Source: Paramecium tetraurelia (taxonomy: Eukaryota). From it: a stretch of 64,000 nt of DNA. The DNA lies in contig CT868046.1 of assembly GCA_000165425.1 (NCBI GenBank), positions 124,001 through 188,000 on the forward strand, written 5' to 3'. This document shows, piece after piece, positions 28,812 through 57,061 of this stretch. Position numbers and translations under genes: made by a program. How positions within the stretch are numbered: position 1 is the stretch's first letter; each line of letters opens with the position of its first letter. The notes under the pieces were generated by a model. That model searched no databases. It was not told the DNA's origin and worked only from the letters and a program-made list of their open reading frames with translations.

Positions 28812-29148
28812 TAAATTGAGATATTTATATAGTAATAGAATTAAATAATATAATCATCTGTTAAATTGAATACTAAATTCTCATAATGCAACTATTTTTA
28901 TGAGTTAATTAATACTGCAATTGATATCTTTTCTTTAAGTTTAACACACTTGTAAAAAAATTTGAATATTAAAGTTCCTAATTTTACAACTAATGCAAAT
29001 TCAAACTCATTTTTAATAAAATATTGATGAATTTCAAGTGGGAATACTTTTTTTTAAAATGGGAAACCTAAATAGATGTTGAGAATTGGGGAGTATAATA
29101 ATAAAAAAAAATTTAATAAATATTTTGATTATGATATGAATTTGATAA

Positions 29149-30798
29149 TCAATACTTTTTTTTCTTATGATCTCTTGATCTGCTTCTACTTCGACTTCTC
29201 TTTTTAAGCTTTGATTTTTTATCTTTTCGTTCCTTACTTTTTTTCCCTATTATAATTTGAATTATGATACTTGATATTCTTTTTTCATCAGAGGAACTTC
29301 GATCTCTATCCTTCTTCTTTTTATGCTTTTTAGAACGACTTGATGATTTCTTTTCTTTGTCTTATTTTTCAGTTCCTTTTTAAACCATTTATAATAAGGC
29401 TTCCGCCATTTTGGTCTGCTTTTAACTATATTTCTATAGAAATGGATGTGGATACTACACCTTTCCTGTCAATCCAGGTATTTTACCCACATTCATCTTA
29501 TTCCAATTCATTTCCATTTATTATTATTATACCAATGATGCTATGGTTTCATTTAATAAGGCATGTTATGCCTAATTTAGTTGAATCTTTTGGGAAGGGA
29601 TGTTCTGGTTGCTAGGGGAACGACTGGGTGATTTTTTTGGTTGTTCTTTGATTGGACTTGCATTGACAGGAGCTTTAATTAATTGTAATTAATTGAATAT
29701 ACAAATTATTTGATTGTAATCCCATTCTATCTCTTCGTTCTTTGGAGTAGGTTCTTATTAAGGTTGGGGCACCGGTTCTTATTCTTCGTCGTTTTATTTG
29801 ATTTATTCAAACAATAGACATATACGTTGACCAATATCCTGATAAATAAAATTAATAATAGGATCATTACAGCTGGAACTTCTTAACAATCTTTACTCCT
29901 GATTACTAGATCGCCAGTTTTTGGATTAATGGTGTCTTACAATTTGGCAAAATCTACAGTACCCTTCCTTAACCATTCAATTGAAAAATTATCAGCCAAT
30001 TGAATAGTGGATGTACCACACCATTACCATTTGGGATCTCGAGGCACTTGTATATTCTTCATCTTAGCACAACCTAAAAACTTTTCAACACGATTAGCAA
30101 TAAAAATCAAAATGACTTTTTTGTTATTAAATTAATCCATAAGAGTCCCAAAGTTACGACGAGTAGTAGCCCAAACATCGTGAGTTTTGGCCAAAATCAC
30201 ATTCTGCTCGGTGTTACTCTTAACAATAAAGAAAACAGCATTTTTAATTTATTATTCCAACTCTGTGTTGGAAATCTCAGTTTATTACTTGATAGTCTAA
30301 ACTTGATAATTGACATATTTAAATGGACATTATTGTAGCTCATTAAAGAAACACTTCGTAACTTTGATAAATTGTTCTTCACATCCTTGGCATATCCTCC
30401 TCTAACAACAAGGGGTCTAAGATGCACTTCTCGCAGATAGGCATGACTCACACAACGATTGGCCCTACTGGTATGGTTGTCTCACCACTATCACGGTTTA
30501 TTTATTTCTCACCTAAACAACCATTACTTTAATTATTCTACTTTATCAGCTAATCCTAATGGTTTTTCTTATCCACCATTCTATTCCAATTCTCCATAGA
30601 TAACTAACTCTTCAAAATTTTAGTTGGACTATCCTTTCTAAGGCTAAGGCATTTCTAGATTTGATTTTTAAATTGATTACTTAGAAAATCCTTTATTTTT
30701 TGTCGTAAATCTTTTAATTGCACATTCACTCCTTATATTGGAATTTTATATGTTTGTGCCTCGTGTTTCATTTTAAAATACACGATGTTCTCAGCCAT
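29149..30798 (-). CDS. DWNN (ubiquitin-like) + RING-like + YTH domain protein with Pro-rich and RS-rich tail (RBBP6/Mpe1-like fused to a YTHDC-type domain)
   Basis: DWNN-like: MAENIVYFKMKHEAQTYKIPIQGVNVQLKDLRQKI...TVIVVRQP. RBBP6-type RING: LCESC...TPCCQRRICQGC...C. YTH: VFFIVKSNTEQNVILAKTHDVWATT...VILIF...KFLGCAKM...KWQW...FSIEW...INP...RSKDCQEVPADIGQRICLLF. C-terminus ...SRSRSRDHKKKKY*. Confidence 0.85.
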
Positions 30799-30939
30799 TA
30801 AGATTTTTTAATTATTTAAAATAATTATTCTTTTAATATAAGACAAATTTTACATACATACAATTTTATATTATATAGATTGAGTGATTTTCTATTTTAA
30901 TACTCAAGAGACTCTTGAATTCAGAGAATATATATTATT

Positions 30940-31752
30940 TCAAAATTTTGTCAATAAAAATTAAGCAATCAGAATTTAGATTTCAAACATCATCTCAGAA
31001 AATGGTTTCTCTTCTTTAATTGATTTTGGTACTTATTTCTCAAGATTATCAAAACCTTAACTTGAGAACTATTAGAAACAATTTATTTGACGTATTTCTT
31101 ATTCATTCATATTTCCTAGTACATTAATCAAATCAAACATTGAGTCCTTTATCTAAAAATTAATATTAAGTAGTTACAGGCTTTTTATATCTATTTTTGA
31201 TCCTGTCTTTTAACCATGTCAAGTTCGAGATGGCTTTATCTTCATTCAGTGCATATCTAATGTTGGGAGGGCAAAATAACTTAGATTTTATGTATTAAAT
31301 ACTTATGTTTTAATATCAAAATATCTTTAAATAAGTACTATTTCGATATCACAGAGTGTTTATGTTCCAATGATAATTCTGTTCTACTTGTATTCTTGTT
31401 TTAGTTTTTGAGTAGATTGATCATGGAAATAGGAAGCCAACGAATTTGCAACTGGTGGTATGTATACTTTTTATTCATTCACACAAAACTGATTAGAATT
31501 GTTAAATTAGAAGCTTGGCATAGACAATCCTTACAGAAATGAAGGAATTTATATGTTATCTTTATAAACAGAATCAGCTAATTAATATTTGGTAAGTTTA
31601 CTTGAATTCCTCATCTGGAGTTGTGGAATTGAAGTATTTGGAAACTCCATTAAAGGGGCAGGTGGGAAATTATATACGAAATAAGGATAGTTGGATGCTT
31701 AATTTTGCTGTTCCTTTGATTACGTCGATATATCAATACAATCACTCAACAT
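30940..31752 (-). CDS. Hypothetical protein, about 3 short introns
   Basis: MLSDCIDISTQSKEQQ...YNFPPAPLMEFP... stays open in code 6 after removing GT..AG introns of 23-25 nt; ends ...IAQFLLTKF*. Confidence 0.6.
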
Positions 31753-32767: not shown

Positions 32768-35700
32768 ATGTTTGAAAAATAACTCGAAAAAATATTGAAT
32801 TGGGTTTTGGGAAAATTTATCGATGGATTTGACGCATAAAACCTTCATATTGGAATATGGAGTGGAGAAGTTACCATATAAAATGTTGCATTGAAACCTG
32901 ATATCATTAAAATGCTTGAATTACCTATCAAACTGTGTTTTAGCCATGTAGGAAAATTGAAGCTAAATGTAATGTATAATTTAATTTCCTTTAGGTACCA
33001 TGGAAATCTTTAACTAGTTCGCCAGTTGAAGTTGTTTTATCTGATTTATATCTGATAATTTCTTTAGATCATCCAGATCACTGGTAATTTATGGATTACT
33101 CAGGTTTCATAAAGAAAATGGAGATTCTTGAAAAATTTAAGGAATAAATAGTTAAAAGCATTTCAGAAAATTCAAAGTAGTAAAATGATAAGGATGATGG
33201 GTATTTCATGAAGGTAGTGTTTAAAATAATTGATAATATATAATTAAGCGTAACGAATATACATATAAGATTTGAGGATACAATAAGGAATGAATTTGCA
33301 TGGGGAATATCACTAAAATCAGTAGAGACCTTCACCTGCAATTCAGAATGGAAAAAACAATACTTCGATAGAACAAAAGAAGAGAATGTATATTAAAAGA
33401 ATTAATTATATAGAAAAAAGTGCCTCTATAAAAATTGTTAACATTAATTAATATTGGAGTATACTGGAATTAATAAGAAAAAGAGTTATTCAATTCCTTA
33501 GAGAAGGATGAAATATTAAAAAAGATGGCAGAATTAGTAATATCTCAATAAGATCCAAAAGATCATCCAAAGTTTGCTTAATTTATGTTATTACTTAATG
33601 CTTCAGGTAGATATTATTAGAATACATCTGGCAAATTTGATTCTCCTGAATACTCATTTACCCTTGAATTGAATACAATTGATTTGGCAATAGAAAATTC
33701 ATAACTCTAATAGTTGATAAAAATGGCAGAACTATTCTCATTATATTAAAATAGATTAAATAAATAGAAGAAATAGAAGTTATTGTTGACAAAGCAATAA
33801 ATTGAAGATTAAATATTAATCTTTTAAAATTTATATGAAAAAATATTAAGAAGTTCTGAGCAAACAAATAAGGCCTTGACAAAGAATGAAAATGATCTTT
33901 TTGAACAATCTGTTAGTAATTTAAGTATTGATATTCTGTGTGAATCTGCAAGAGAGATAATAAAAGTAGTTGAAAAAGAAAGAGCAATAAAGGAAGCTGA
34001 GGATAAAAAGAAAAAGAAAGGAGGTTGGTTTAGTTGGGGTTCAAAAAAGGATAATACCTTAATAGATGAATAAGAAAAGGATGAACTATTTAAGTTTATT
34101 GATAAATTAGCTGATTTCCCAGACGTAAAGGATTTGAAAAGACCACCAGAGTATGTTAAATTTGCAGCTAAATTCTCTTTAAAGTCTGGAACAATTCATG
34201 TGTTGAAATAGTTTGAAGCAAAAAGAGAAGGAGTACAATTAAAATATTTTGGATTTGAAGGTTAGTTAGAAATTAAAGAAAGTGGAATGATTCTAAATTT
34301 AGGATTAAATAATATTGGAATTGATCTTGTAACTGAGCCGATTATAAATAATGTAGTGATGTACTCTCAACAAACTAGAAAAGTATTCGTCGAGTAAGTG
34401 AACAAATAGAAATTTATAGATTTTACTTTTGAAACCAATCCAGTACATCATAAAGGAGTAGATAAATATATCAAATTAGAAACAGGATCTCTTAAATTGG
34501 TATTTAATCCAATCATTTTGGTTCGAATTCAATAATTTATTGATTTTTAAATAAAGGATGAAACATTGAAAAATGCAGCTTGGGATTAAGTAGAGTATGC
34601 TTAAGATTTAGCAGTCAATTAAATGGCTAAAACACAATTATCATCATCTATTTTATTTGTGGATGTGAAGGTAAAATCCACGATAGTTTTGGTTCCAATC
34701 CCTGATACAAATGAAAATTGGTTATTGAATTTAGGAGATATTTCGATTGTTACTCCAAATATGAATGAAATTAATTATGATAAGTTTGAGATTACATTAC
34801 AAGATTTCACATTTAAGCATTATAAATCATTTTAAGAGTGCTAGAAATCTATCACTAATGGAGCATACTTAAATAATATTGATGATTCTTTTAGTGTAAT
34901 TTAAAATATCAAAGTGTCTATTATTGCCAAACTTTTGAGAGGCAGTTCAAAACCTCCCAAGGAATTGGCATAAATTTCAGTGGATGGTGTGCTTCCTTAA
35001 TTGAATGTCTTTGTCAATCCATTAATATATAATCGAATCATCAAGGTGGGTGATTGTTTTATTGCACCAATTACAGAACCTGAAGAGGCAATGCTTAGAT
35101 AATCTAGATTGACTATTGAGAAGGCCTAAACTGAAAGAACTGCTTTGGTTGAGACAGCTACTAAAGTTGGTAAGATTTGGAAAAGGGGGTAATAGTTGAA
35201 ATGGTCTTAATATACTGGAGTATTAAGTGGGGGTTACATCTATCTATTTGCTAAGCCTAAGGACGAATAGGCAGAATCCTTCTTTTGGGTTAGGAATAGT
35301 GATTTCGAAGATGTGCCCTAAGAGGAAGCAGGGATGAGTAATGCATTCTATATAAAGAATAAATATGGAGACACATTAGTAGCATTTGATAAACAAAAGA
35401 TGGCCAATGATTGGAAGGAGGCCATTGAAGAAATGAGAACATAATTGAAGGCTGAGAAAAATATTGAACATGTACATACACATAGTAATACAAGTATGAG
35501 TAAAGAGAGTCGACCATTAAATTTGAAATTTGAATTATCTGGATTCTGTTTACATTTACAAGACGAAAAATTAAGTGATTGGTTATAAGTAGTAATTAGT
35601 GGTTTGAGTGCTGGTACATCAATACTAGATGGATCGATCGATTTGGATTTGAAATTAAGAGATCTTTACGTAATAGATAGTGTGTAAAATTATTTGAATC

Positions 35701-38700
35701 CATTATTTAAGTATATTGTGAAATCGGATCCAGATCCAGAATCAAACGAATTAATAAACATTAATGTTCAATAGATTAATAAAAAGGATAAGAGATACAA
35801 TAAAAAGAATCTGATCGTCTAAGTTACTTTTGGTACTTTATGTTTAATTGCCAAACCTTTAGTAATTGCGAGACTACTCTTATTTGTTACTCCAGCAGAT
35901 TAATAGAATTAGATGAAAGGTTATGAAGAAATGGATCAAGCAAAGAGGAAGATAGAGTAGACCAAAAAGGAATTAGAAGGTGCAGCATAGACTGTGAAAT
36001 TAGATAAAATGTAAGACGTAATTTTGATGGATGTCAATGTTAAAATAAGAAGTATAAATGCTATTTTAGTACACAGATTCACTATTTTACCATTGGCTGA
36101 AATCAAGATAGAGAACACTGAAATAGGACTCATTAAATATGTTGATGAATTACAATTGAATGGCACATTGGGGAATCTACAACTTTTTGATCTAACCAAT
36201 TATCCAAACACTCTTAGTTAGGAATCTGAATATGATCAAATCTAACCTAAATAAATGGTTGGAGTCAAACTACAATAATAGTCATTATTAAAAATGAATT
36301 TAACCTTGTTCTCAGATGGCTCATCCAAGATATTTAATAATGTTAATATCATCATCGATGTAGAAATGAGTTAATTAATTATACATGTAATGATGTAACC
36401 AGTCTTGAGATTATTAGATTACACTCTCTAATAATTGCTTTACGCTCTACAAAATCCAAAGTAAACCATATCTCCCAATTCAAATTTAATCTAATTAGAA
36501 GAAGAATCTATCGAATAATATTAATATTAAAGAACCCAATATGCTAGATAAACTATCAAATTGTCAGAGGAAGAAGCATCTGTCCTATAAAAATTATTAA
36601 AAAATCCACCAGGAATGAAATTAAATGTTAAAATTCACAATCCTTAAGTGATACTTAAACCAAACTAAAATTCAAATTCCGCTATGATCATTGATTTGGG
36701 AACCATATTTGTATCAAATAAAAGAATCTAAGAAACAAACAGAGTAATTGGTTAAGGATCCGAACCTGTTTGGGTAGAATAATTTATATTAAATATGAAG
36801 GATATCTAAATTTATTAATAAAACGAATAAACTAAAAGGGAATTCAGTTTACCATTTGATTTTAATATAAACGTTGAAATATTTACACTTGCTGAGAAAT
36901 ATGCTTTGAATTATCCTAAATTGAAATTTGATGAATAATTAAAGATCAATTGTTTTGTTGCTCCAATGATTTTGTAAATGACCCATTCTGACTACATGTT
37001 CTTAATGAAATGTCTATTTCACAATATTGCATATGATGATGGATTTGATAACATGATAAGAATTAACAATCCGGAATATTTTAAAGCCTTCTTTGCATAA
37101 TAGGATTTGTAATAGATTAAATTAAAAGAAATGCTTAGATAGTAAAATGAGAATCCATAAATCAATTTCTAATTAGATATCGAGAACTTTACTATATTTT
37201 TACTAAAAGATATTTAACCAAAACCAACTCCCTTTTAAAGAATGACTTTGATTTTAATGAGAATAACATTTTAAAAGTGTAATAATGGATCAATGAAAGT
37301 CAATCTATTGATAAGAGATATGGAGGGCAGCATGTTTTAAGGGGATTAATCCTTACAAGAATTTCATGAATTGCCTTTTATTGGTAATATGAATTTTCAT
37401 TAAAAATATACTTATGAACAAGTAACCAATTTAAATGGTTTAGTAAGAGGAAAACAAGGAGCATAAAGTAATGCAGATCAATCAATGATTTTGGCAAGTA
37501 CTGGTTAACTTAGTTAAAGGACGAAGAGAGATTAAATTTTTAGGTTTGAGGATGCCTTTGAATAATAGAATGATGGCAATATTCAATACAAATTGATGTT
37601 TTCATTAATAATGAATCTTAACGGAGATAAATTAATTAATGTTGAATTGTCTGATTTTAAGTTGTAATTACATGCTGGCCCTCTATTTGAAGTACTTTAA
37701 TTAATAGCTATGGATGATCCAGACTTAAATGCAAAACCAGGAAAATTTGTTAATATTTAATTATAATAATAACTATAATAGTAATAATAATAGTATGGGG
37801 TATTGTAAATAAAAGTAAACTTAAGGAATGTAATCACTTGTGTCCCATCGTAAGTTGAATCTAATGTCTTAGCTATTCGTGGGATATTTGAGATTACTTT
37901 GAAAATGTATCCATAAAGAACTTAGAAATAAGTTTAAGCAGAAATTATGGAAAAGAATATCCCAGAAAAAGATTGGAACAAATTGAATATTGTTATGTCA
38001 ATAAATGCTAAATTATAAAGGATAGAAATCTTCCTATGTAAAAGCTATGATTTAGGAAAGAAGGATGATTTTAAGTAAGTTAAAAAAAGAGAAATTTTGT
38101 AACCTGCTGACATTGAAGTAACGATAATCAAGGCCGCTGTGTACTATGCAAATTCAACAGAGTTTGGAGATGATATTGATATTGTTTGTAGAATCACTCC
38201 AATCAATTTAAAAGTTTCCTTTAAAGACTTACTCACTATCCAAACTGGTTTAACATATTAACTGAGCTAGATGCCAAAATAAATCCCTGCCGCTAATAAT
38301 GAGCAAATGAAAAATAATGAATTGTCTAAATTGGACACTTCTCATCTTGATAAAATATCAATGAATTCAATGAGAATAGATTTGGAAATTGAAAAAACAA
38401 AAGTAGTAGTATTAAATGATATGGGCAACACCTTTGCTCCATTATTCGATTTATAAGTAGATCTAATCAAAATTCTATTACAAAAGAAACCTATTCTTAC
38501 TGAAATTAGTATTTTAATCCCCTTTGAGTTTAAGAATTTTAATCCTCTTACCTCTAAATGGGAACCAATCATTGAGAAAATAGAATTTCAAATAATTTAC
38601 TTATCTAGTTTGTTGGGTGAAACTAAAAACCTAATCACAATAGAACAATTAAAGGAGGATGCATCTTTTAATCTTAATATATCTTCAATCTGTATTTAGA

Positions 38701-41700
38701 CTGTTCTCAAGGTGCTGAAAATTATGAATAAGATCTTTAAGAAGTCAAATGCTAGAGAATAGAGAAGCATGTCAAAATCATCGTTAACGTCTGAGAATGA
38801 GGCGAGTGAAGTACTCATTTAAGAATCACCATATGCAATAAGAAATTTAACAGGGAGAGCTCTTCAAGTTGAGTATATTGATAAAAATAATTAATCACCT
38901 TTGAATGTACCTGTAAATCAATAATTAAATTTGGTGTATGACGAAGAAATGGAATAGATGAATAGTAATAAAATAAGAAGAGTAAATGTAAACATTAAAT
39001 TGGATAAGACGACATTTCCATTGAAATATATTGATTTAGACAAGACTAGAGGAAAGCTTTACGAGCATCAAAATCTACAAGTCTATGGTATAGTCAAATT
39101 AGACTAAGTAACAAGTTAGAAGATACTAATAGTTTCATCTCCAATTATAATTGTAAATAAAACAAGCAAATCTATAGTCATACAAATTAGTGATGATAAA
39201 AACTAATAAATATTTAAATTATAGCCATTGATCAATGAATTAGATTTAACAAATGTTGTACCTGTGCCAGTTGGATTTGATAATTCTAAATTTTGTTTAA
39301 AGGTTGATAATTGTCCACAATTTTCAGAAGAAATAAAAATTGATGCTTTAATTAGAAATTCAGCTGTAGGATAGCCATAAGCAATACATACAAGAGATGG
39401 AATTTATATTCAACTGAAAGTATATTTAGATAAGGAATACAAAGATAAAGTTAAAATAGAATTTCAAGCACCTTATAGAATAACAAACTCATTGCCAAAA
39501 GAAATTTACGTTCAAATGTTAAATCAAAGAAAAGAAACAACATATATCAAGAAAATATAACCAAAGGAAACCATGGAAGATTATATGCATAGTCTATCTA
39601 GTATTGAAAACAAAAACAACACTTACATTAGAGTATTATTGTAAGGCTTTTATTGGTCAAGTGAGTATCAACTATCATCACCATTAATTGAGGAAGGATA
39701 AAAGAACAAAAATGATTATTTGGGAAAATTATAATTAGTTGATGGAATAGATAATCAATTATCATTATTAATCTTTGAGCCTTGGCGATAATCAGACTAT
39801 AATAAAGCAACAAGAGAGTTTGTAATTCATAGTACTGGCTATATAATAAATAAAAGTGGAATGGATTTGTAATATTATACATCTGAAAAAAAGAAGAACT
39901 TAGCACCAATTGCAGGATAGAATCCAATCAATTCAGGAGATTCAATAGATAGAAATATAATCTTCATTGGATAAGAGTGTGGAAACATATTGCAGTTGTC
40001 TCATTCATCTGCTCCTCAAAAAATATCATAATTCCCAATTTAAATATCATCTAGTATTGGTGAACCATTCATTGATGTCATTAGGGTAGATGAAGAGGAT
40101 TCTAGTAGATTTCTTTAAACATATCTAGGAGCTAAACTGGATTTGAAGGTTTGTAATAACAAATACACTCTTTTTTCAAAGGTGATAACAATAGAGCCTA
40201 GATTTATATTGGTAAATAACACTGATAAAGAATTGATAATACACGATCTCGATGGAACTTATCATTAAATTATTTAACCTAATCAAAGAGCCATTTCCTA
40301 AGTTAAATATAATGTCAAGCAGAAAGATCCATTTGATTTCCAATATATAACAATGAATCTAAATGAATATACCTATCATCCAAGTGGCAGAATCAATATA
40401 TGCTGCGTTGGTATAGTAAATTTTCAATTGAGAAAAACTCAAAACTCTTAAGAGAAATTATATTTTAGTTGTGACATTAGAAAAGAAGGATGCAGTTTAT
40501 ATGTCATCTTTAGTTAACTCTCTCTCGATTAAGCACCATATAAAATAGAACTTGAAGCTGAAGCATTAGAATTAGTAATTTAAGAGTTGAAAGTCACTCT
40601 CAGATAAGATAATTAAGTTGCCTACTTTGCTTCTGATGATCCTTAATAAACCAGTAGGATTTTGAATGTAGAATTGAGAGTTGCAGATGATCCTTATAAT
40701 GATTTTACCCCCTTTAAATATAAACTTAATCCAGATATCATTGGTGTATTTAAGATCTACACTTTTAAACCTAAAAAAGGATCTATGGCTAATCCTATTT
40801 CTGTTGCTTTGACTATCATGCCTTAAGGTAATCAGAAACATGTTAAAGTGGCCATAGCCACATAGGAATAAATAACACTCTATCAATCAAAACCAAAATA
40901 GGACTTCTTAAAGTAAGTCAAAGAGAAGGAAAATCTTGGAATAGAAATGAATGAAGACTCCATAAGATAATCGTATTCGCTATAGTAATCACGTCAATCT
41001 CAATAATAAGATGGTGATAAAATCTTGACGAGAATAAATCTTAAGATTAATGCATTTTCATTATCTGTTATTCATAATTCTCAAATGAAAAAGAGACCAG
41101 CAGAATACTTTCACTTTTTATGTAAAAATATAGAATTTGTTGTTATCTCAACAGATATTAGTTAAGTTGTTTAATTGAGAGTACAATATATAAATTTTGA
41201 TCATAACGCATAATTTTTTGTTCAATTTCCTGTTATTTTAACACCTTAAAAATATTCAATATATTAACCAACTTAAATCTAATAATAATAATAACAATAA
41301 TAATAATAGTAATAGTAATAATAGGAAGCTGTCAAATAATTTTAATAGAGCGAAAAATACTTTTTCAACTTCTTGATCATGAAGGATAATAGAGTTACAT
41401 CAATCAACTTATTTTAAAATGTCACTTTGGAAATAGATCCATTTGAAGTTAAAATAGAATAGCTATTCATTAATAATTGCTTAGATTTTATTTGGGCTAT
41501 AACATCGTATTAAGGATTAATAAATGATTATAATAAAACCTAATCAGAAATTTTAATGAAATAAAAATAATCAGATACTCAATCATTATAAGAAAAGTAA
41601 TAGAGTAGCAATAGTCAAGCATAAATTGAATCAGTTTACTTAGTGAATGAAGAGTGGAAAACTAAGTAATTACCAAAAGCATAATTACCAACTTATATCA

Positions 41701-42957
41701 GTGAAATCATCATATCCCCAATAGCCATAAATGTCACTTTCTAAATGACAGGCAAAGGAGATCTAAAACTAAAATAGTCTGCCTTATTTTCATCCATAGC
41801 CTAAGCTTTGGGAGTTGCATTAACAGATGTAAGTGATGCACCAATTGTTATTTCAGGATGGCAACTCGAGAATTGTTTCGATACAATTCCAGGAATACTT
41901 AAGAAAATGTAGGAATTTTATCTTGCTGCAGGTTTGAAGTAACTAGGCAAATTAATTGGAAGCTTATCAATTATAGGTAATCCAATTAGTTTATTTAATA
42001 ATGTATCGACAGGCTTTAAAGATTTCATTGATAAGCCAGCTGCAGGATTAACTTAAGGTCCTTTAGAAGCTGGTTTGGGATTAGCCTAAGGAGCTGGATC
42101 ATTAGTATCTCATACTATATTAGGAGCAATAAACTCAGTTAACAAAATAGCTGGGAGTGTAAGTGGAGGTTTGGCAAATTTGGCTATGGATGAAAATTAT
42201 TTAAGAAAGAGAGAAAAGATGAAGATGTAGAAACCAAAGCATATTGGCGAAGGTCTAGGATAAGGAGCCCAATCAATAATGACAGGAATAACAGATGGAA
42301 TTGCTGGAGTATTCTTGAAACCCATATAAGAAACCAAAGAAAAGGGTTTGAAAGGAGTCTTTACTGGAACAGCTAAAGGATTTGCTGGACTCATCATAAA
42401 ACCAATAACTGGGGTTTTAGATGGATTCTCGTAAACAGCAGCTGGAATTCAAAATACAGTTCAATATTTTGAAGATAAACCTAATAATAATAGATCTAGA
42501 AATATCAGACCTGTTTATGGATATGAGGGATATATTACTGATTTCGTTTCACTTGATGCCGAAGCCTATGCTACTCTTTAGTTCATACGTAGGGGCTAAT
42601 TAATAAACAATAGATTTGTAGCATCCTACTTTTTGAATTCCGAACAGGATGGTTATTGCATGCTAGTCTTGACTATTGAGCATTTTATATACATGTCAGT
42701 AAAGACTAAGAAGAAAGTATAATTCCTATTTAAGTTTAGGTTTGGATATTGGCCTCAAATGAAATTACTCATTTAGAGATCGTTCCTTCAGGACTCAAGA
42801 TTTAAGTGAACAAACCTTAAAAACAATTGAAAGTATAGAATAATTAATTATTTAGAACAAATACATTACTTAATTAGTCTTAGGAGAAGACTTGAAATAT
42901 GATATCTTTTAGACTATGTAGAGCATATGGGATTCGGTAAAGGTAAATAAAAATTGA
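32768..42957 (+). CDS. VPS13: VPS13 family lipid transfer protein (~3,360 aa) with internal PH domain; 4 short introns
   Basis: Chorein-N start MFEKQLEKILNWVLGKFIDGFDAQNLHIGIWSGEV..NVALKP..LPI...VGKL.L.VPWKSL; later WEPIIE and SPY.IRN.TG motifs. C-terminal LIGSLSIIGNPISLF and GVFTGTAKGFAGLIIKPITGVLD (ATG2_C-like). No net frame change at the points checked between 33414 and 42715. Confidence 0.95.
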
Positions 42958-43003: not shown

Positions 43004-46000
43004 TCAATTCTCATCTAACTTAATTAATATTCTTTTTCCATATTTTAATATTTATTAATCCTTTGTTTATGCCTTATAATTAATGTTAAATTTACCAAGT
43101 TCATTTCGATTATCTATCTAATTTACAATTCTTCAAATTTTTTTCGACATTCAGGATAGGCACAAAGATTCCCTATAGAAAATAAGGATATTCTTGTTGG
43201 TTGAGACCCTTTGTCTGTTTTCACCAATTCTAACAATTAATGTAAAGCTCCATGTTTTATTAAATCCTTTGTTAAGGCATTAGAATTCCTTACAAAATTT
43301 CCTAATGCTCCAGCTGCATTTGCTCTAGTTTTTTCCTTATTATTTTAGATTATAAATATACTTCCTAATCTCTTAATAATTCAACTAACATTGGTACAAC
43401 TGGTCTTAACTATTCATACAATCTATCACTATGAAATCCTGCATTTCCAACTGCAAAACAAGCAAATTTACGTGTATGCTTATCTGGATCTTGGCAACAT
43501 TTGATGCAAAGATTAATTAAATCGAATTTGAGTAAGTGCTCATAAAAGAAGGAAGAATGTCGACACAAATTACCAATCAAATTGCAAACCTTTGCTCTAA
43601 CATTAGAATCAGGAGATTAGATTTACTATTTCAAGTCAGTATACAAATTAATCGAATGAATATTTGGATAAAAATCTTTACTAATCCTGGCTAGTTATGA
43701 CAAGATATTAATAGAATCAACACTCATTATTTAATATTTCTACAAAATAGCCAATCCATTGTTTTATACAAAACTTTATGCAAATTGTTTGTCTTCCTCA
43801 TTATTTCCAACTAATCTTGAAATGAATGAAATAACTAATGATATGTGATCTTTTTATAGATATTTTATCAAATTTAAAGTTAAAGCTACTATCTCTTGAT
43901 TACTCAATTCTTTAAAGACATTATCACAATTTTATTCTTAAAATGCCAAAATGAAAATTCGAATGATTTAAATGCTCATTACATTTACGCAAGCCAAACC
44001 TCCTCCACTTGAAGAAGGCCATTCTTGAATACTTTGTAATTAAGCTTCTTTTAAAAAGGAACATAAAATTCTGATAGAGTTTTCTTAAAAGATTAATTAT
44101 CCTAAGGCTTTGAAATTTGAGTATATTGAATCATGGATTAGAATTAATAAAGATACGAATCCTTTTGGAGATACATCATTCCTACTAGTAACATTTAATA
44201 AAATCTAAAACAATAATTGGTGTATTTCATATTTTTCCAATAATTAAAACAGATCTGTCAATTTCTTTTACTCCTTATTATATCTAAATAGTAATTTTTA
44301 TAACAATGTAATAACTCCATCAACGAATCCATAACTAGGACATCCAAAACTACTACCCTCTAGTTTTCTAATTTCCTCTGTTCTATTTTGTTTCTTATTC
44401 GGATTGACTAGTTCGCTTAATAGTTTGTAAGGTAGTTATTAACTAAAATAATTAAGTAATTGATTTGTAAAATTGGTTTCTTATTAAAGTAATTCTGCAA
44501 TCAACTGAATTGCTGATAAAGAAACAATAGGATTTAACTAAATATTATTCTCAAAAATTTCAATCACCTATTATAAATTAACTTAATATTCCTAATTTTT
44601 ATTCTTATATTATTAAACTAAGATCAACAAGGCAGTTCCTTAAAATAATGCTTCATCAGAATTAAGTGCTTGACTAATCAATTCCTTTGAAACATGGACA
44701 TCTTTACTAACTCTAATCATTTATAATAAAATTCTCAATACAGAGATTCTTGTTAAATTTTACTAGTCATCTTGTTCATTATAAATTTTCATATGATCAA
44801 TATCAGCATAAGCAGCAACTATCTGATTTTTCATTGATTCAAACAGAGGTAATGCCTCATTAAAATTTAAAATTTAAATTGAATATCCTTTTTTCCAAGG
44901 AAAACTAAATATTTCTCCATGAATAGGATGTATCAATACTCCAATTACTTAGGTAGCAAATTTGTGAAGGGTAATGTTATTTTTTGTCAATTTAGCAGTT
45001 TCTTAAGCTAAGTTATGTTCAACTAATTCTTTATAAAATAATACAGATCTTACTGGATTAAGACTAGCTTAATTAGCAAATATCCCAATAGTTTTGATTG
45101 TGTTAATTAATTCATTATTTTATCCAATCTTCAGAATTTGGGCAGTCATACCTATGAATTTAATAAATATATTGTCAATTCCAATATTTTTATCAAAGGT
45201 GGCTTTGGCCAAAAGTCCAATAGTTTTAATTAATTCAGATAGCAATTCAGAACTGCCTTATTTTAGAATACTCTTAACATGAGTAACCAATTAAATCGGA
45301 ATTTATTAATTTTTCACAACATCCAAGCCTTCTTATAAATTCCCTTTAGTTATGACTTATCCAAAGACTTTCAAAGCACAATGCAAAGATGGTTTCTTTG
45401 GAGGAGCTAATACTTGAAGCAATTTATCTAGAAATCCAGGATCGCACCTTAATTATGTAGCACCTTGAACATCATTGGCAATTTATTCACTTTTCACCCA
45501 ATATTCATCATTACAAGGCATTCTTCTAGGAGAGATATCTCTTGTATCTTTACCCTGATCGTAAGTTATGATATCTCTTGTAGGCGTTAAAGATCTTTTA
45601 CGTTTATCAATTACTTCATTTTCAACTCCAGCCCATTAGCTATATTATTCTAATCTTTTCTTCCTATCATATTTTTCTTAGTCAGACTCTTATATGAATG
45701 GATGGTTTAGTAGATCAGGCCATCCTAACCTATCAGAAGGTGTTTTATTGAGTAGCCCTTTTAAGAAACTTTTGAATTCAAGACTCATATTATCTGGATA
45801 TTTTACAGGATCCTTTATGATAAGTTGAATTAAAGAGTAAATTTGATTTGTATAGAATGGAGGTTAGCCAACGAAAAGTTCGTATAAAATCACACCCAAT
45901 GACCATAAATCAACTGTGTGATTATAAGGTTATTCTTAAACTAACTCTGGAGCCATGTATAGAGGAGTACCTTTGATTGAATGCAACACCTGAGTATTTG

Positions 46001-46480
46001 TTGACATCGCTCTTGCAAAACCAAAATCACACAATTTAACAATCCCATTCGCAGATAGTAAAATATTTTAGGGTTTCATATCCCTATGAATAATTCTGTT
46101 TGAATGCAGATAATGAAGTGCTCTAACCAATTATTATGCTATTTTTCTGACTTCACTTTCAGGAAGATTACGATCATCCTCCAAAATTTCATACAATTCT
46201 CCTTGTGCGAACTAATAAATAAAACAATATAAATTACTTCAGTTACTAAGCAAAATTCGCCTTGTGTCTCAAATGCATCTAATAATAAGATTATATTTTC
46301 ATGCTTCAATCTTCTCAATATTTCAATTTCCTATCTCAAATTTGCTAAGTCTTTTTCTGTTTTTCCCCTTTTACTTATGAACTTCAAAGCTGCCATTTAA
46401 TTGCTTTTCTTCTATCTTCCCTTAAATACCTTTCCAAATTAGCCTTCCCCGATTAAATGCAATACATGATAATTTTCCAT
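43004..46480 (-). CDS. STK36: Fused/STK36 (TIO-like) Ser/Thr kinase with C-terminal ARM/HEAT repeats
   Basis: [22 protein letters not shown]...[34 protein letters not shown]...[13 protein letters not shown]...HRDMKPQNIL...[25 protein letters not shown]-terminal [14 protein letters not shown] and [10 protein letters not shown] match Fused-family ARM repeats. Confidence 0.93.
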
Positions 46481-49484: not shown

Positions 49485-52400
49485 TCATATTTTTCTAATT
49501 TCCAGAGGTATTGTTTCAAATATTGTTATTTTTTTATTTGGCTATTTTTATGTGCATGCTTTTATGAGTTTATCCTTAATGACTCTTAATTACTATGCCA
49601 AATCAAAGACTACAGAAAATATTAAGATAAAAGTAAATATTGCAATATGGAACCATCCTACGATATATTTTTAGTCTAAAGTTAGATTAGGCATTGAATA
49701 CAAAATGAAGAAACTAGTGGCCAAAGTGATTTTGGATTCCACAAATATCATTTTGTAGTACTCGTAACAATTTGTCATAGGTCTCTTAGATACAAGGTAT
49801 AAAGCAAATGAAATATGAGTAATCGAAATAAGGGTTGTTTGTAATTATCCAGATTATTGCATAAAAATGAGTAAAAGCATAAATACTAATTTTTTAATTA
49901 ATAGTAGCGAATTGAATTATCTAGCCCACAATCCATGATTTTCTGTGACTCCTTCAGATAAAACAGTGAATTAATCAGAAATACCATTTGATTACTAGTT
50001 TTGTTTTGATAACATCAAGAATATGATGGTTAATACTAGGCAGAATGACATTCCAGCAATTAAGACACTAACTGATGTAATAAAGAGGTGAAATTCAGGG
50101 TAATATAACTAAAGCAAGACAGTAAAAAGAATTTCATATGTATTGGTAAGAAAAATTCTAATTATTCCAGAATAGAAAAAGTAAATTTAGAATCTTACTA
50201 ATAATCGATATAATTAAGTCAATTTTAAAAAGTATTTATGGTTGTATAAATAGTGGATATATTTGTTTATAGCATGAATGAGTAATAAGCTAGCATAAAA
50301 GGATGCAAAGGTAGTACAGAAAATCATCATGGAGATTCCAAAATTATAAAAGTAAAATGCATTAATACTGTCTTCTTTAAACTTGTTAGTGGTTTCAATG
50401 AATATAGTTTCACCGAAACTAAATAGATTGACGATTGTTTAAAAGTGGATGAAATCTAAAAATGGTTGTAAAGTTATTACTCTAAATAAATCAAAGAATG
50501 AATTCAAGTTAGTGGGAAATTGTATATTGATATACTTAATATATGATAAATACTGAACCATGTCTAATAGATTCCAAAATATATCTAAGTTTCTAGTGAG
50601 AACAGAAATTAAAGCTATGGCTAAAAGTATGTAGAGCAATATTGAATTAACAATAGTGGAAGTTGATGATATCGTTTTATCTAAGGCTGATTCATAATAG
50701 CATGTAAATAAACGAATATTTTACTTGGTTTTGACAGGATGCTAATTATTTTCATCAATAAATTCTGAAGGTTTAAAAGAGACCAATAGCGATGGACTCT
50801 CCACACTTACAAAGAACTCAACATTGATTACATACAGTACAGGATCAAAGGTAGTGGTTGAGTAAGTGTTGTTATTTACTATATCTATTTTATATAGATT
50901 TGGATTCAAATTTAGGATGTTAGCTTCAATGAGATTGTAATTAGATTTATTATTTACACCCAGATACTTAAGATTGGATGTAAATGATAACTAAGTGGAC
51001 TGTTTCAAATTTGGAGCAATAGTTAATAGTGTTAAGACCATGGAAGGCTATTGAGTAAACTCGCAAACAGATGGTAAATTTACGTTATTGACACAATTCC
51101 AACTTTCCTCGATCATGCAACCAGATGAGCATCCATCAAAGGAATCGATATTAGCATCATCGCATTATTCATACTATATATCAGTTGTAGCTACAACTAT
51201 GCCATCTCCACAAATAACTTCACATTGTCCTTATATTGATATTGTCCATCCAAATTAACACTCTAAACAGAGTCCTTGGGAACATAAATTGCAGGCGTAA
51301 TGACACTGATATTAGCAATTGTAACATCCATCATACTTATCAAAGTTCCCATCATCACATTGTTCTTTCCCTTAAACAATTTCATCACCACATTTTGTAG
51401 TACAATTATCATTATTATCTAAGTAATATCCTTACTCATAGTCACATTCTACACAAATACCTTCTTAACATATTAAACACCCAATCACACAACTATATTA
51501 ACAATTATAACATCCATCATTTGCTCTAAGATTACCATCATCACATTACTCAACATCTAAGTTAACAATCCCATCCCCACAACTATTTTGACACCGTGTT
51601 TCGTAACACTTCCCTTAATACCAGATGCATGTTAAGCCATATTTATCAAGAGAGCATGATTCTTGATTATCGTAATCCGAACAATCATCAATCATAACAC
51701 ATTTATTCTAAACAGTACTAAATGTGCAAGTAGCCATAAAATTCTGACATTAAGGATGGTTATGATAATATTGAACATCAGCTAATTCACACTTTCGATT
51801 AACACATTAGTTATTGTACCACAAACATTAAAACCCTTATCTTGAGATTGTACATTGATAATCAAATCGGAAATCGCTGCAACTATATGAGGTAATACAT
51901 TAAACACCATTGGTGATGCATGCACCATCGAGGATCGCTTTGCAATATTTATCACTTTAATAGAAAAAGTCTTCACATACAGTCATTTGACATCCTTGGA
52001 CACAATTTCTTTAGGTATTATCTCTAATATTGAGAAATTTGCAAGTGTTGTTGTTGTAGCTATTGCAAGTTGCTTTGTCTTAGCAACCGGATCCAGAATT
52101 CGCTAAGGTGCATTGATTTAGTAATGATTCACAACCAAGTGCAGTTGTGACAGTACTATCAATATTGGAACATGTAAGTTATTTACATACTCCATATTAT
52201 TTGCTCCAGTAACATTTATTCCTACTTGCATCTATTACGCATTGAGTTCTAAATGCTAAATTACAAGTCACTGGTATATTTGTACATCCCCCTTGAACTT
52301 AGGAGATGGTACAGACTTGATTGGTTGGAGATATGAATTATTCACATTTAGTGATTGTATCAATCTCTTGGGGTGCTGTTGTGCAATCCACAATATTAAT

Positions 52401-55400: not shown

Positions 55401-56384
55401 CCACAAACATTATTATTATGCAGAATCAAGCTAACAAGAATCTTCAGTTTCGAATTAAATGCAATTTTAAGGTCTAGATTTACAATTCCCTGATTAAGTT
55501 GGCACACAATCCAATTCCTAAAAATAGCTATAACAATCATTTCCGATTGGAATTTATTAACAAACTTTTTTTATGCAAATTATTCCCGTCCAAAAACATT
55601 CATTACCATCAACATCTATTACGCAACCATTGATGTGTGTAATGTCTTGACACTATTGTCTCAGAACACAATTAAAACCATTTGTAGTGCAAGATGATAA
55701 AAATTATTTACATTATTTGTCTGTAGAAAATTATGCATTCAAACAGATTTTTTCCATACATTTACCTTTCATTTAGTTCCAAAAGCATTCCTTTCCATCA
55801 ATTGTATTGAAACATTGGAATATCTTATATTCAATACATTAAGAGGCTTTAGCTGTACAGAAACCTTTCTAATCTATTGTACATTAACTTATTGCATTTT
55901 CACATTAAATATGCGATTTCAATATTGGTAAATCAGAACATTCAAATATCTTAAAACAATTTGGAGTTTATTTTGTATTCCATTAGCAATATCCTTAATG
56001 TAAATCTTGATTTTTGCATGCTTCTTATGTTAAATAATTTTGGCATTCACTTTTTTATATACAAGTGCTCCCATCTGATATGCAATTTATTGATGACGCA
56101 CATTTATCAATTGCGAATATTTCACAGCCTTTGAAATCCATACATGAACCATCCTTAAATGCACAATCTTCCTATTAAACGCATTCTTCCGATAAAAACT
56201 AGTCACATTTGTTTTCAATTTTACTGATATAAGATGGATTGTTATCACACATTTTGTTTAACCATTGACATCTTTTAGAGATCTCACAAGTGAATTAATC
56301 AGGAATTTGAAAGCATTGACATTATTGAAGTTAGGTATTAATAGTTCTGAATAACAATAAATAAGGTAAGATGTATTATATCAT
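49485..56384 (-). CDS. Large Cys-rich surface protein (2,299 aa): surface-antigen-like C.W repeats, CGDG..CDDGN (Myxococcus-type/DUF4215-like) repeats and a multi-pass C-terminal membrane domain
   Basis: Apparently a single exon: start, stop and the track ORFs at 50439 and 53328 share one frame. N-terminal hydrophobic leader and many CxW.G..C units. Three CGD..V...CDD.N...DGC units at about 51100-51600. TM region includes FWNLLDMVQYLSYIKYINIQFPTNL. Confidence 0.85.
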
Positions 56385-57061
56385 TTATTTTAATTATTCA
56401 AATCAGCCATGTTCAATTTATAATTAAATAATATTGGATAACATAATCAACAAGAAATTAATATATTAATAATTCTATATTATTATAAATTATAATACAT
56501 AATTGAAACACCCTAGTATTTTTAGAAAAATCCTAATCATCGAAATAATTTGGATTTGTAATTCAAGAATATAATTTATTTAATGTGAATTCAAAACATT
56601 ACTTACATAATATTAATTAATTAATTGGAAAAAATGGGTACGTTGCTCAAAAAAATGAATGAATTATTTGGGGATATAAAAGAATATAATAAATATGAAA
56701 CATAATATTGTACTTTTTACATATTTTTCCCTATTATGCAATCGTATCAAGTATTAAGAATTGAGTGAATATTGATAAATCTTCAATTAGTATTTATTAT
56801 AATAATTTACTTTTTATAGTTGTTTTTTATCTTATGCTAATCATTTTATGTGGTTTCTACTTTTTTGAGACTCAATTTATCAGTAGTTCGAGATATTTTA
56901 TATTGATATTTATCATTTGAATAAATAGGAAAATAAAATAATATAATATATCTTAAATTTTAAAATATTTAAATTCATTATAAAATAATCATGCAATCCA
57001 AATTAAAATCAACCAATTTTTATATCATACTTAATTTCAAAAAAATAATAGGTTTTTAGCA

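What the first reader, a model, noticed from the sequence alone, without database searches (positions are those of the whole stretch)
29149..30798. RBBP6/Mpe1-like 3'-end factor fused to a YTHDC-type m6A reader (DWNN-RING-YTH-RS)
Seen in the sequence: one minus-strand gene encodes a DWNN-like domain (~30470-30798), a PCC..C..C RING-like domain (~30330-30455), a full YTH domain (~29800-30245) and a Pro/RS tail. The YTH keeps residues matching the YTHDC1 m6A pocket: N in EQNV, cage W in DVWAT, second W in PKWQW, and L in IQL. Established: DWNN plus RING defines RBBP6/Mpe1, which activates pre-mRNA 3'-end cleavage and normally has a zinc knuckle rather than YTH. Plants (CPSF30-L) and apicomplexans (CPSF4) attach YTH to a different CPSF subunit to couple m6A with polyadenylation. 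Inference: ciliates may have independently wired m6A reading into 3'-end processing, or m6A-directed ubiquitination, through RBBP6. No zinc knuckle is visible here. This could matter in a genome where neighbouring genes end within about 50 nt of each other. I do not know of this architecture being described but could not search.
Basis: partly seen in the sequence, partly recalled or inferred. Interest (0 to 1): 0.85.

Follow-up and report, generated by a model that had tools for sequence, protein, structure and literature searches.

The report
Ciliate RBBP6-like protein fused to YTH reader
One expressed Paramecium gene joins the ubiquitin-like docking domain typical of the mRNA 3'-end factor RBBP6/Mpe1 and a cysteine-rich zinc module to an m6A-reading YTH domain, an arrangement also found in rumen ciliates and apparently not described before.

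Summary
Window 29149-30798 (minus strand, ciliate code) is one six-exon gene. Its 502-aa product is identical to Paramecium tetraurelia GSPATT00035788001, annotated only as "YTH domain-containing protein". The YTH domain is certain (Pfam E 1e-28) and keeps the cage residues N181, W191, W241 and L249. Its best solved relatives are the YTH domains of plant CPSF30 and Toxoplasma CPSF4. The N-terminal 90 residues score below the Pfam DWNN threshold (E 0.005). However, a confident AlphaFold model has Mpe1-UBL and RBBP6-DWNN as its two best matches in the PDB (Z 11.3 and 10.3; next best 8.4). The "RING" is eight invariant cysteines with RBBP6-like spacing for the first six. It could not be confirmed by profile or by fold. 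There is no zinc knuckle and no room for a PSR. Stranded RNA-seq covers the whole gene continuously. The same DWNN-RING-YTH-RS order occurs in 36 of 39 protein clusters from rumen-type ciliates, where DWNN scores E 1e-13. These lie on single-gene chromosomes. My best reading is an m6A reader tethered to the CPSF73 endonuclease through an RBBP6-type UBL (confidence about 0.55). Function is inferred, not shown. It is a new variant of a known kind (YTH fused to a CPSF subunit). I found no prior report.

The parts
29149..30798 (-). Whole coding region of the gene (ATG 30798-30796, TGA 29151-29149). It has six exons and encodes 502 aa, identical to P. tetraurelia GSPATT00035788001.
   Evidence: 100% identity, 502/502 residues, to P0011. 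RNA-seq depth is confined to about 29157-30812.
30474..30798 (-). DWNN-type ubiquitin-like domain, residues 1-90. It is split by introns 1 (30680-30655) and 2 (30541-30513) and ends in R88-Q89-P90.
   Evidence: Pfam DWNN E 0.0049, profile 1-74/74, below the cut-off. The AF2 model has block-mean pLDDT of 79-88 for residues 1-40 and 71-90, falling to 40-66 for residues 41-70. Foldseek top two hits are 6i1d_B Mpe1 UBL and 2c7h RBBP6 DWNN. VIA-align gives Z 11.3 and 10.3, against 8.4 for the next chain.
30327..30452 (-). Cys-rich RING-like module with spacing C98-x2-C101-x10-C112-C113-x4-C118-x2-C121-x9-C131-x7-C139.
   Evidence: All 8 Cys are invariant in 10/10 sequences. Only weak RING-type PDB hits were found, best E 0.031, using a profile that also contains rumen-ciliate sequences. 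There is no Pfam hit. AF2 gave no confident fold.
29806..30236 (-). YTH domain, residues 170-302, interrupted by intron 3 (29870-29839). Pocket residues are N181, W191, W241 and L249.
   Evidence: Pfam YTH E 1e-28. PDB sequence matches are 5zuu CPSF30 at 5.8e-19, 7ng2 TgCPSF4 at 7.8e-17 and YTHDC1 at about 1e-14. The intron 3 joint is seen in RNA reads.
29440..29487 (-). Conserved C-terminal motif GKIPGLTGKVQYPHPF (residues 399-414). It is shared with the divergent Paramecium paralogue subfamily. Its function is unknown.
   Evidence: Alignment (P0048/P0050 carry GKIPGIKGDTKYTHP). Coordinates checked. No PDB sequence match was found.
29149..29361 (-). Lys/Arg/Ser-rich tail with an RS run (residues 441-502), containing intron 5 (29270-29247) and the stop codon.
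   Evidence: Composition. The tail aligns with the RS tail of the rumen-ciliate family.

Best explanation
The gene encodes a nuclear m6A-RNA reader built on the N-terminal chassis of RBBP6/Mpe1. The DWNN-type ubiquitin-like domain is the module that docks RBBP6/Mpe1 onto the CPSF73/Ysh1 endonuclease. It is followed directly by a RING-like eight-cysteine module, then by a CPSF30/YTHDC-type YTH domain with an intact methyl-adenine cage, and finally by a basic RS-like tail. The proposed mechanism is as follows. The YTH domain binds m6A laid down on nascent transcripts by the ciliate METTL3/METTL14 orthologues. The DWNN domain tethers that site to CPSF73. Cleavage, polyadenylation and termination are thereby promoted at methylated 3' regions. 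In this scheme the YTH domain functionally replaces the zinc knuckle and the PAS-sensing PSR of canonical RBBP6/Mpe1. What is shown: one gene and one continuous transcript, the YTH identity and cage, the DWNN-specific fold, the invariant cysteines, and conservation of the whole architecture in a second ciliate class. What is inferred: m6A binding, CPSF73 docking, any E3 activity, and the effect on 3'-end formation.
For: 1. The gene is single and expressed. It is identical to the annotated spliced protein. Three stranded oligo-dT RNA-seq runs laid 432, 518 and 447 reads. They show depth in 25, 25 and 24 of 30 bins, all on one strand, and none outside about 29088-30881. An intron-3 joint and loose ends at the other intron borders are present.
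2. YTH domain. Pfam E 1e-28. The best solved relatives are Arabidopsis CPSF30 YTH (5.8e-19) and Toxoplasma CPSF4 YTH (7.8e-17), ahead of YTHDC1 (about 1e-14), YTHDC2 (1e-9) and YTHDF (about 5e-5 or weaker). The cage N/W/W/L is present and is kept in 24/24 rumen-ciliate homologues.
3. DWNN domain. Of 350,542 PDB chains, only two reach Foldseek E<=1e-3: Mpe1 UBL in the Ysh1 complex and RBBP6 DWNN. Of 48,161 chains aligned without Foldseek, the same two rank first, at Z 11.3 (rmsd 2.1 A over 79 residues) and Z 10.3; the next is 8.4. A profile of the N-terminal alignment A4, which also contains two rumen-ciliate sequences, hits 2c7h at E 0.0043 and Mpe1 at E 0.01 as its top PDB sequences. R88 and P90 are invariant. 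I equate them with the Mpe1 R76/P78 interface residues named in PMC9380774 (passages) by their position at the end of the last strand. This is an inference, not an aligned result.
4. Family. 36 of 39 clusters found with the rumen-ciliate homologue carry both Pfam DWNN and YTH. Their DWNN scores E 1.5e-13. Their RING has the CxxC...CC-x4-C-x2-C...CPxC pattern. They align collinearly with the Paramecium profile over 298 columns at 98.8% probability. For the N-terminus alone the P-value is about 1e-5 to 1e-4.
5. Writers exist. P. bursaria has METTL3 and METTL14 orthologues (PMC10173741, passages).
6. A related alveolate links the two parts as separate proteins. Toxoplasma YTH2 pull-downs recovered an RBBP6 homologue and CFIm25 (PMC8354455, passages).
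Against: 1. No zinc knuckle and no PSR lie between the UBL and the RING. Only 7 residues separate them. In yeast both are needed: removing the zinc knuckle abolished association with the polymerase module, and PSR mutants cripple cleavage (PMC9380774 passages).
2. The Paramecium DWNN is below Pfam's gathering score (17.5 bits against 26). phmmer of the N-terminus against 1.84 billion representatives found 6 proteins, none a canonical RBBP6.
3. The Mpe1 interface residue F9 corresponds to M10 in the HMMER alignment, and the D45 equivalent is uncertain.
4. The RING is unconfirmed. There is no Pfam hit. hhalign of the RING region alone is not significant (P 0.01 to 0.32). AF2 gave pLDDT 33-45 and 40. 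The last Cys pair has x7 spacing instead of x2.
5. I could not test whether Paramecium also has a canonical RBBP6 that does the core job.
6. No binding or functional data of any kind exist.
Confidence: 0.55

Rival explanations
1. An m6A-guided ubiquitin-system or RNA-surveillance factor that does not work through CPSF. The YTH domain selects methylated RNPs. The RING-like module, with the UBL as a proteasome or partner handle, then modifies or recruits proteins on them, for example for decay, splicing or export control.
For: UBL-plus-RING proteins of the ubiquitin system are among the nearest language-model clusters for residues 1-150: ubiquitin+zf-C3HC4, ubiquitin+RING_UBOX and ubiquitin+zf-RING_2 rows, scores 0.79-0.84 (leads only). 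The parts of Mpe1 that contact the polymerase module, the zinc knuckle and the PSR, are missing. The eight invariant cysteines indicate a constrained zinc module.
Against: The UBL fold matches DWNN/Mpe1-UBL by 2-3 Z units more than it matches ubiquitin, Rad23, parkin or other UBLs. RBBP6/Mpe1 clusters fill ranks 2, 7, 9, 10 and 12 for Paramecium, and the first nine listed rows (ranks 1-10) for the rumen-ciliate N-terminus. The YTH domain is nearest to the two YTH domains known to sit in CPSF. E3 activity of the module is itself unshown.
Confidence: 0.2
2. A YTHDC1-like nuclear reader whose N-terminus only resembles RBBP6. The UBL and the cysteine module are lineage-specific, or derive from RBBP6 but have been repurposed. 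The protein acts through its RS tail on splicing or export.
For: Sequence evidence for DWNN in Paramecium is weak (E 0.005 to 0.001). No canonical RBBP6 was found by phmmer. The RS/K-rich tail resembles those of splicing regulators: weak PRP38_assoc and SRSF1 hits in the rumen family, neither significant.
Against: Fold specificity. A bona fide DWNN, E 1e-13, sits in the collinear rumen-ciliate homologues. The UBL-RING order matches RBBP6.
Confidence: 0.13
3. A reader of N6-methyladenine in DNA rather than RNA. Ciliate macronuclei carry abundant 6mA, and the YTH domain could bind methylated single-stranded DNA in transcription bubbles or R-loops.
For: Ciliates have 0.8-2.5% methylated adenines and several MT-A70 subclades (PMC4738411 passages). 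That YTHDC1 can bind 6mA in single-stranded DNA is recalled from the literature and comes from no call.
Against: Ciliate 6mA is a duplex ApT mark near gene starts (recalled). Paramecium has METTL3/METTL14 orthologues for RNA m6A. The nearest YTH relatives are RNA readers inside CPSF. The RS tail and the DWNN domain point to RNA processing.
Confidence: 0.07

Closest known systems
RBBP6 (human) / Mpe1 (yeast), activator subunit of the CPSF/CPF 3' endonuclease
   Same: It has an N-terminal DWNN ubiquitin-like domain. The best structural matches are 6i1d_B and 2c7h. The R-x-P end of the domain is kept. A cysteine-rich RING-type module follows, and its first six cysteines are spaced C-x2-C...CC-x4-C-x2-C. 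That this spacing matches RBBP6 is recalled from memory.
   Different: There is no CCHC zinc knuckle and no PSR between the UBL and the RING. The last cysteine pair is x7 instead of CPxC. A YTH domain and an RS tail follow, which RBBP6/Mpe1 do not have. DWNN sequence similarity is below the Pfam threshold in Paramecium.
Arabidopsis CPSF30-L and Toxoplasma/Plasmodium CPSF4 (YTH fused to the CCCH zinc-finger CPSF30 subunit)
   Same: These carry the YTH domains closest in sequence to this one (5zuu 5.8e-19, 7ng2 7.8e-17). All three share the WAT motif after the first cage Trp (alignments). The logic is the same: an m6A reader covalently joined to a cleavage/polyadenylation component.
   Different: The carrier here is an RBBP6-like DWNN+RING module, not CPSF30. 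No CCCH zinc-finger family was detected at E<=1. The link to CPSF is inferred here, whereas the papers report it experimentally for plants and Toxoplasma (PMC8313237 and PMC8354455, passages only).
Toxoplasma YTH2 with its co-purifying RBBP6 homologue TGGT1_268900
   Same: In another alveolate, a YTH protein and an RBBP6 N-terminal homologue are found together, along with CFIm25 (PMC8354455). The ciliate protein looks like the fused form of such a pair.
   Different: They are separate polypeptides in Toxoplasma. I did not compare their sequences with the ciliate protein.
YTHDC1 (metazoan nuclear m6A reader)
   Same: It has a DC-type YTH domain (about 1e-14) with the same cage residues, and a charged, low-complexity C-terminal region.
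   Different: YTHDC1 has no UBL or RING. The ciliate YTH has Ala where I recall YTHDC1 has Ser378.

Membership tests
RBBP6/Mpe1 | N-terminal DWNN ubiquitin-like domain | tested here: met
   Fold: rank 1 and 2 of 48,161 chains are Mpe1 UBL (Z 11.3) and RBBP6 DWNN (Z 10.3), with the next at 8.4. These are the only two Foldseek hits at E<=1e-3. Sequence evidence is only sub-threshold: PF08783 E 0.0049, 17.5 bits against a cut-off of 26, but full profile coverage.
RBBP6/Mpe1 | CCHC zinc knuckle after the DWNN domain | tested here: not met
   Seven residues (YQQGQSL) separate P90 from C98. No zf-CCHC or zf-CCHC_2 hit appears at E<=1 in P0011, P0012 or the rumen-ciliate proteins.
RBBP6/Mpe1 | Pre-mRNA-sensing region (PSR) between the zinc knuckle and the RING | tested here: not met
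   There is no room at the canonical position. Profile searches matched Mpe1 chains only over the UBL. The conserved C-terminal motif gave no PDB match. A very divergent or relocated PSR cannot be excluded.
RBBP6/Mpe1 | RING / U-box-like C4C4 zinc domain | tested here: inconclusive
   Eight invariant Cys are present. By their molecule names, 53 of 59 weak PDB hits of the mixed N-terminal profile are RING-type proteins, but the best E is 0.031 and the RBBP6 RING chains score E 0.77 and 7.1. There is no Pfam hit. hhalign of the RING region alone is not significant. AF2 pLDDT is 33-45 and 40.
RBBP6/Mpe1 | Conserved UBL residues at the CPSF73/Ysh1 interface (Mpe1 F9, D45, R76, P78) | tested here: inconclusive
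   R88 and P90 are invariant and are equated with R76/P78 by their position at the end of the last strand. F9 aligns with M10. The D45 equivalent is ambiguous (F53/E54/E55). The residue list comes from PMC9380774.
RBBP6/Mpe1 | Physical association with CPSF73 and activation of cleavage | not testable with these tools
   No Paramecium CPSF73 sequence could be obtained.
YTH domain, DC type | YTH profile match over the whole domain | tested here: met
   PF04146 E 1e-28, profile positions 2-135 of 135. 39 of 42 PDB sequences matched at E<=10 are YTH chains.
YTH domain, DC type | Methyl-adenine pocket: two Trp plus Leu cage and the Asn contact | tested here: met
   N181, W191, W241 and L249 align with the N, W, W and L positions in YTHDC1 chains (alignment). 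The YTHDC1 numbering (N367, W377, W428, L439) is recalled.
YTH domain, DC type | Selective binding of m6A RNA | not testable with these tools
   This needs a binding assay.
CPSF30-YTH (CPSF30-L / CPSF4) | CCCH zinc fingers of CPSF30 upstream of the YTH domain | tested here: not met
   No zf-CCCH family appears at E<=1. The upstream cysteines are all Cys, with no His, in a RING-like spacing.

The most novel reading that the evidence does not exclude
In ciliates the RBBP6/Mpe1 activator of the 3' endonuclease may have exchanged its PAS-sensing parts (zinc knuckle and PSR) for a YTH domain. On this reading m6A itself, rather than or in addition to an A-rich hexamer, licenses CPSF73 cleavage. This would matter in genomes of about 30% G+C where AAUAAA-like words carry little information and genes are tightly packed. 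The fusion would be ancient, because it is shared by Paramecium and rumen-type ciliates, and this protein would be the lineage's only RBBP6.
Probability: 0.12. Interest if true: 0.9.

Novelty: new variant of a known kind. Interest (0 to 1): 0.62.

Why it matters
Coupling m6A reading to polyadenylation is so far known through one route only: a YTH domain on CPSF30, in plants and apicomplexans. If the inference holds, a second and structurally different route would exist, with YTH on the RBBP6/Mpe1-type module that docks on the endonuclease itself. That would show the coupling has been selected more than once. It would also give a natural "Rosetta stone" for the YTH2-RBBP6 co-purification seen in Toxoplasma. 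It would offer a tractable model, since Paramecium supports RNAi by feeding and writer orthologues are present. That model could test whether m6A directly licenses CPSF73 cleavage and prevents read-through in very compact genomes. The protein is also a natural variant that keeps the UBL but lacks the zinc knuckle and PSR, which bears on which parts of RBBP6 are indispensable.

Tried and rejected
1. Own-genome search: no genome is held for this window. I therefore could not ask whether P. tetraurelia has a canonical RBBP6, a CPSF30 with or without YTH, or a CPSF73 sequence.
2. phmmer of the N-terminal 164 residues against 1.84 billion representatives gave 6 hits: the protein itself, four fragments of relatives, and one repeat protein (P0006) that I take as spurious. 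No canonical RBBP6 appeared.
3. PDB sequence searches with the single protein and with the Paramecium-led profile gave no DWNN or RING hit apart from a TRAF3 RING at E 4.1.
4. AF2 of the RING region, both within the N-terminal model and alone, gave pLDDT 33-45 and mean 40. No fold search was made with the second model.
5. hhalign of the RING region alone against the rumen-ciliate family gave P 0.01 (misregistered) and 0.32.
6. The conserved C-terminal motif gave 0 hits against the PDB.
7. The look-up of sequencing runs listed no holder on record as RNA among the indexed runs. Raw RNA runs of the same species label were laid instead.
8. Complex prediction was not used, because the only informative partner (CPSF73) was unavailable.
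9. A YTH phylogeny was not built, because no stored sequences of the reference YTH families were available. The "closest to CPSF30-YTH" statement rests on E-values only.
10. A first guess at intron 3 was off by 5 nt and was corrected.
11. The earlier-findings look-up in this genome returned nothing.
Full report
**Observation**

The minus strand of window 29149-30798, read with the ciliate code, holds one gene of six exons: 30798-30681, 30654-30542, 30512-29871, 29838-29703, 29672-29271 and 29246-29149. The five GT..AG introns are 26, 29, 32, 30 and 24 nt long. The frame reads 27 TAA and 11 TAG codons as sense and ends in TGA. The spliced product is 502 aa. It is 100% identical over 502/502 residues to stored protein P0011, which the collection names Paramecium tetraurelia GSPATT00035788001 / A0C791, "YTH domain-containing protein". 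So the window is P. tetraurelia macronuclear DNA, and the gene model is the annotated one. An ohnologue (P0012, GSPATT00004230001, 91% identical) exists, as do orthologues in four other aurelia species. The last DWNN strand, the cysteine module and most of the YTH domain lie in the single exon 30512-29871, so the fusion does not depend on splicing.

**Expression**

Three stranded oligo-dT RNA-seq runs with the same species label were laid on 28950-31000. They placed 432, 518 and 447 reads of 58 nt. Depth is present in 25, 25 and 24 of 30 bins, almost all with the first mate on the + strand. Depth is zero in the bins outside about 29088-30881. The 32-nt intron 3 appears as a joint (4, 3 and 6 reads, plus one contig of a fourth run). 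Loose ends sit at 29703, 29838, 29870, 30512, 30540 and 30681, which are the other intron borders. At 25 places a second letter is read in up to about half of the reads or more. The loose-end consensus at 30512 also differs from the window. I read this as cross-laid reads of the ohnologue, which is an inference. Short reads cannot prove single molecules, but there is no gap and no second start.

**YTH domain**

Pfam PF04146 matches residues 170-302 at E 1e-28, covering profile positions 2-135 of 135. Against the PDB sequences, 39 of 42 matches at E<=10 are YTH chains. The order is Arabidopsis CPSF30 YTH (5zuu, 5.8e-19), Toxoplasma CPSF4 YTH (7ng2, 7.8e-17), YTHDC1 (about 1e-14), YTHDC2 (about 1e-9), then YTHDF and Mmi1 (6e-6 to 7e-4). 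In the printed alignments, N181 (EQNV), W191 (DVWAT), W241 (the second W of PKWQW) and L249 (IQL) fall on the N, W, W and L pocket positions of YTHDC1. The YTHDC1 numbers N367, W377, W428 and L439 are recalled, not from a call. The W-A-T motif is shared with the two CPSF30-type domains.

**N-terminal domain**

Pfam DWNN matches residues 6-90 over the whole profile (1-74 of 74), but only at E 0.0049 and 17.5 bits, against a cut-off of 26. The ohnologue scores E 0.0011, and the divergent paralogues P0048 and P0050 score 0.011 and 0.006. An AlphaFold2 model of residues 1-164 was built from a nine-row alignment. It is confident over the beta-grasp elements (block pLDDT 79-88) and poor for residues 42-53 and after residue 90. 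With this model, Foldseek finds only two PDB chains at E<=1e-3 among 350,542: 6i1d_B (Mpe1 UBL bound to Ysh1, E 1e-4, TM-target 0.72) and 2c7h (RBBP6 DWNN, E 2.4e-4, TM-target 0.70). VIA-align run against 48,161 representatives, independent of Foldseek, ranks the same two first. Their scores are Z 11.3 (rmsd 2.1 A over 79 residues, 23% identity) and Z 10.3. The next is Par3-NTD at 8.4, and ubiquitin and other UBLs are at 8.3 or below. A profile of the N-terminal alignment, which also holds two rumen-ciliate sequences, has 2c7h (E 0.0043) and Mpe1 (E 0.01 and 0.032) as its top PDB sequence hits. I therefore accept a DWNN-type UBL. Four Mpe1 residues at the Ysh1 interface are F9, D45, R76 and P78 (PMC9380774, passages). 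R88 and P90 are invariant in Paramecium, and R80 and P82 are invariant in the rumen family. I equate these with R76 and P78 by their position at the end of the last strand. F9 aligns with M10, and the D45 equivalent is uncertain.

**Cysteine module**

C98, C101, C112, C113, C118, C121, C131 and C139 are invariant in 10 of 10 sequences, spanning three Paramecium-lineage subfamilies that are otherwise 36-55% identical in this region. The spacing C-x2-C-x10-(P)CC-x4-C-x2-C resembles what I recall of the RBBP6 RING. The last pair is C-x7-C-P rather than C-P-x-C. No Pfam RING or U-box family is hit at E<=1. In one search, 53 of 59 weak hits are RING-type proteins by name. However, none is significant (best E 0.031; RBBP6 RING 2yur 0.77 and 3ztg 7.1), and the profile included rumen-ciliate RINGs. 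AF2 failed on this region twice. Verdict: a zinc-binding, RING-like module is likely, but RING membership is unproven. There is no zinc knuckle and no space for a PSR, because P90 to C98 is only 7 residues.

**Relatives**

A profile search found 9 proteins among 8000 scored candidates, and 3 of them carry both Pfam DWNN and YTH. Searching with one of these (P0017, residues 1-410) gave 39 clusters, of which 36 carry both families. In them DWNN scores E 1.5e-13 (51 bits), and YTH scores 5e-28 to 2e-31. The alignment of 24 members shows this order: DWNN, a conserved 50-residue linker, a C-x2-C...CC-x4-C-x2-C...C-P-x-C RING, YTH, and a long RS tail. There is no zinc knuckle. The cage N/W/W/L is kept in 24/24. 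Three encoding contigs of about 2.2 kb (L001-L003) are AT-rich (23-29% G+C) and hold this one gene. Two are capped at both ends by (CCCCAAT)n/(GGGGATT)n, and the third (L001) at its 5' end only. This repeat is the telomere reported for Entodinium caudatum and for all sampled rumen ciliates (PMC6211341 and bioRxiv 10.1101/2022.01.05.474053, passages). So the architecture sits on single-gene chromosomes of rumen-type ciliates. Profile-profile comparison with the Paramecium family is collinear through all three domains (298 columns, 98.8% probability). With the N-termini alone the P-value is about 1e-5 to 1e-4. For DWNN alone it is 6.6e-5 over 78 columns, and for the RING alone it is not significant. 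Language-model neighbours, which are leads only, point to MPE1/RBBP6 clusters for both N-termini. The arrangement is therefore old within ciliates. I found no named Tetrahymena or spirotrich member, but the word-seeded searches are not evidence of absence.

**Mechanism**

The DWNN/UBL is the part of Mpe1 that binds the nuclease domain of Ysh1 and is required for incorporation into CPF (PMC9380774). The YTH domain is of the kind that sits in CPSF in plants and Toxoplasma. Paramecium has METTL3 and METTL14 orthologues (PMC10173741). In Toxoplasma, YTH2 co-purifies with an RBBP6 homologue and CFIm25 (PMC8354455). The simplest synthesis is an m6A reader tethered to the endonuclease. In that scheme the YTH domain takes the RNA-sensing place of the missing zinc knuckle and PSR, and the RS tail adds RNA/RNP affinity. 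Every functional step is inferred. [quoted passage not shown] It leaves room for a CPSF-independent E3 or surveillance role, a YTHDC1-like role, or 6mA-DNA reading.

**Novelty**

The gene is in public databases, but only as an uncharacterised YTH protein. Five full-text searches found no description of a DWNN/RBBP6-YTH fusion or of ciliate YTH proteins:
- YTH+DWNN returned 4 papers. The two I opened by passages use "Yth" for yeast Yth1. The other two I saw only as listings.
- "YTH domain"+Paramecium returned 6 papers, unrelated by title and abstract.
- YTH/ciliates/RBBP6 returned 97 papers, of which 20 were seen.
- YTH+Tetrahymena+m6A returned 72 papers, of which 25 were seen.
- YTH domain+ubiquitin-like+RING+ciliate returned 0 papers.

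RBBP6+Tetrahymena gave 3 papers. I opened only the beta-grasp survey (PMC1949818), and it does not mention YTH. Subscription journals and supplements were not searched. I class the finding as a new variant of a known kind: an m6A reader fused to a cleavage/polyadenylation component.

Noticed in passing
window 3240-25512 (+): A run of very long open frames (2162, 1014, 1189, 1451 and 931 aa, stop to stop). They are built from repeated modules that share motifs such as EYGYGFW..FLT.YP and GDR.LA.WQGQGYYHFTT. None has a meaningful Pfam family at E<=1e-5.
   Followed up: partly
proteins P0048/P0050 (P. pentaurelia, P. primaurelia; 493 aa), not in the window: A second, divergent Paramecium subfamily has the same order: a DWNN-like domain (E 0.006-0.011), the same eight cysteines, a YTH domain and a tail. 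Its YTH is degenerate (E 6.4e-7, only profile positions 2-93 matched), and the second cage Trp appears to be lost.
   Followed up: partly
window 29440-29487 (-): The motif GKIPGLTGKVQYPHPF is conserved between the two Paramecium subfamilies in an otherwise low-complexity tail. It has no PDB sequence match, and whether it is a docking peptide is unknown.
   Followed up: partly
window 29700-30800, RNA reads: At 25 positions a second letter is read in roughly a third to two thirds of RNA reads. This is consistent with reads of the ohnologue GSPATT00004230001 being laid at >=95% identity. If so, both copies are expressed.
   Followed up: no
L001-L003 (about 2.2-kb contigs): The rumen-type ciliate homologues sit alone on gene-sized chromosomes carrying CCCCAAT telomere repeats. 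They have a strongly conserved linker of about 50 residues (..RRGELQQI.RY.EPLEKI..) between the DWNN and the RING. Paramecium lacks this linker, and its role is unknown.
   Followed up: partly
window 33294-42806 (+), 43224-46238 (-), 49488-56402 (-), 58434-60605 (-): The neighbouring genes are a VPS13-like protein (3171-aa open frame), a protein kinase with HEAT repeats, a Paramecium surface-antigen-domain protein, and a ubiquitin-activating E1. None has an evident link to the finding.
   Followed up: no
window 29088-29156 and 30798-30812: RNA depth ends within about 60 nt after the stop codon and begins within about 15 nt before the ATG, so the untranslated regions are very short.
   Followed up: no
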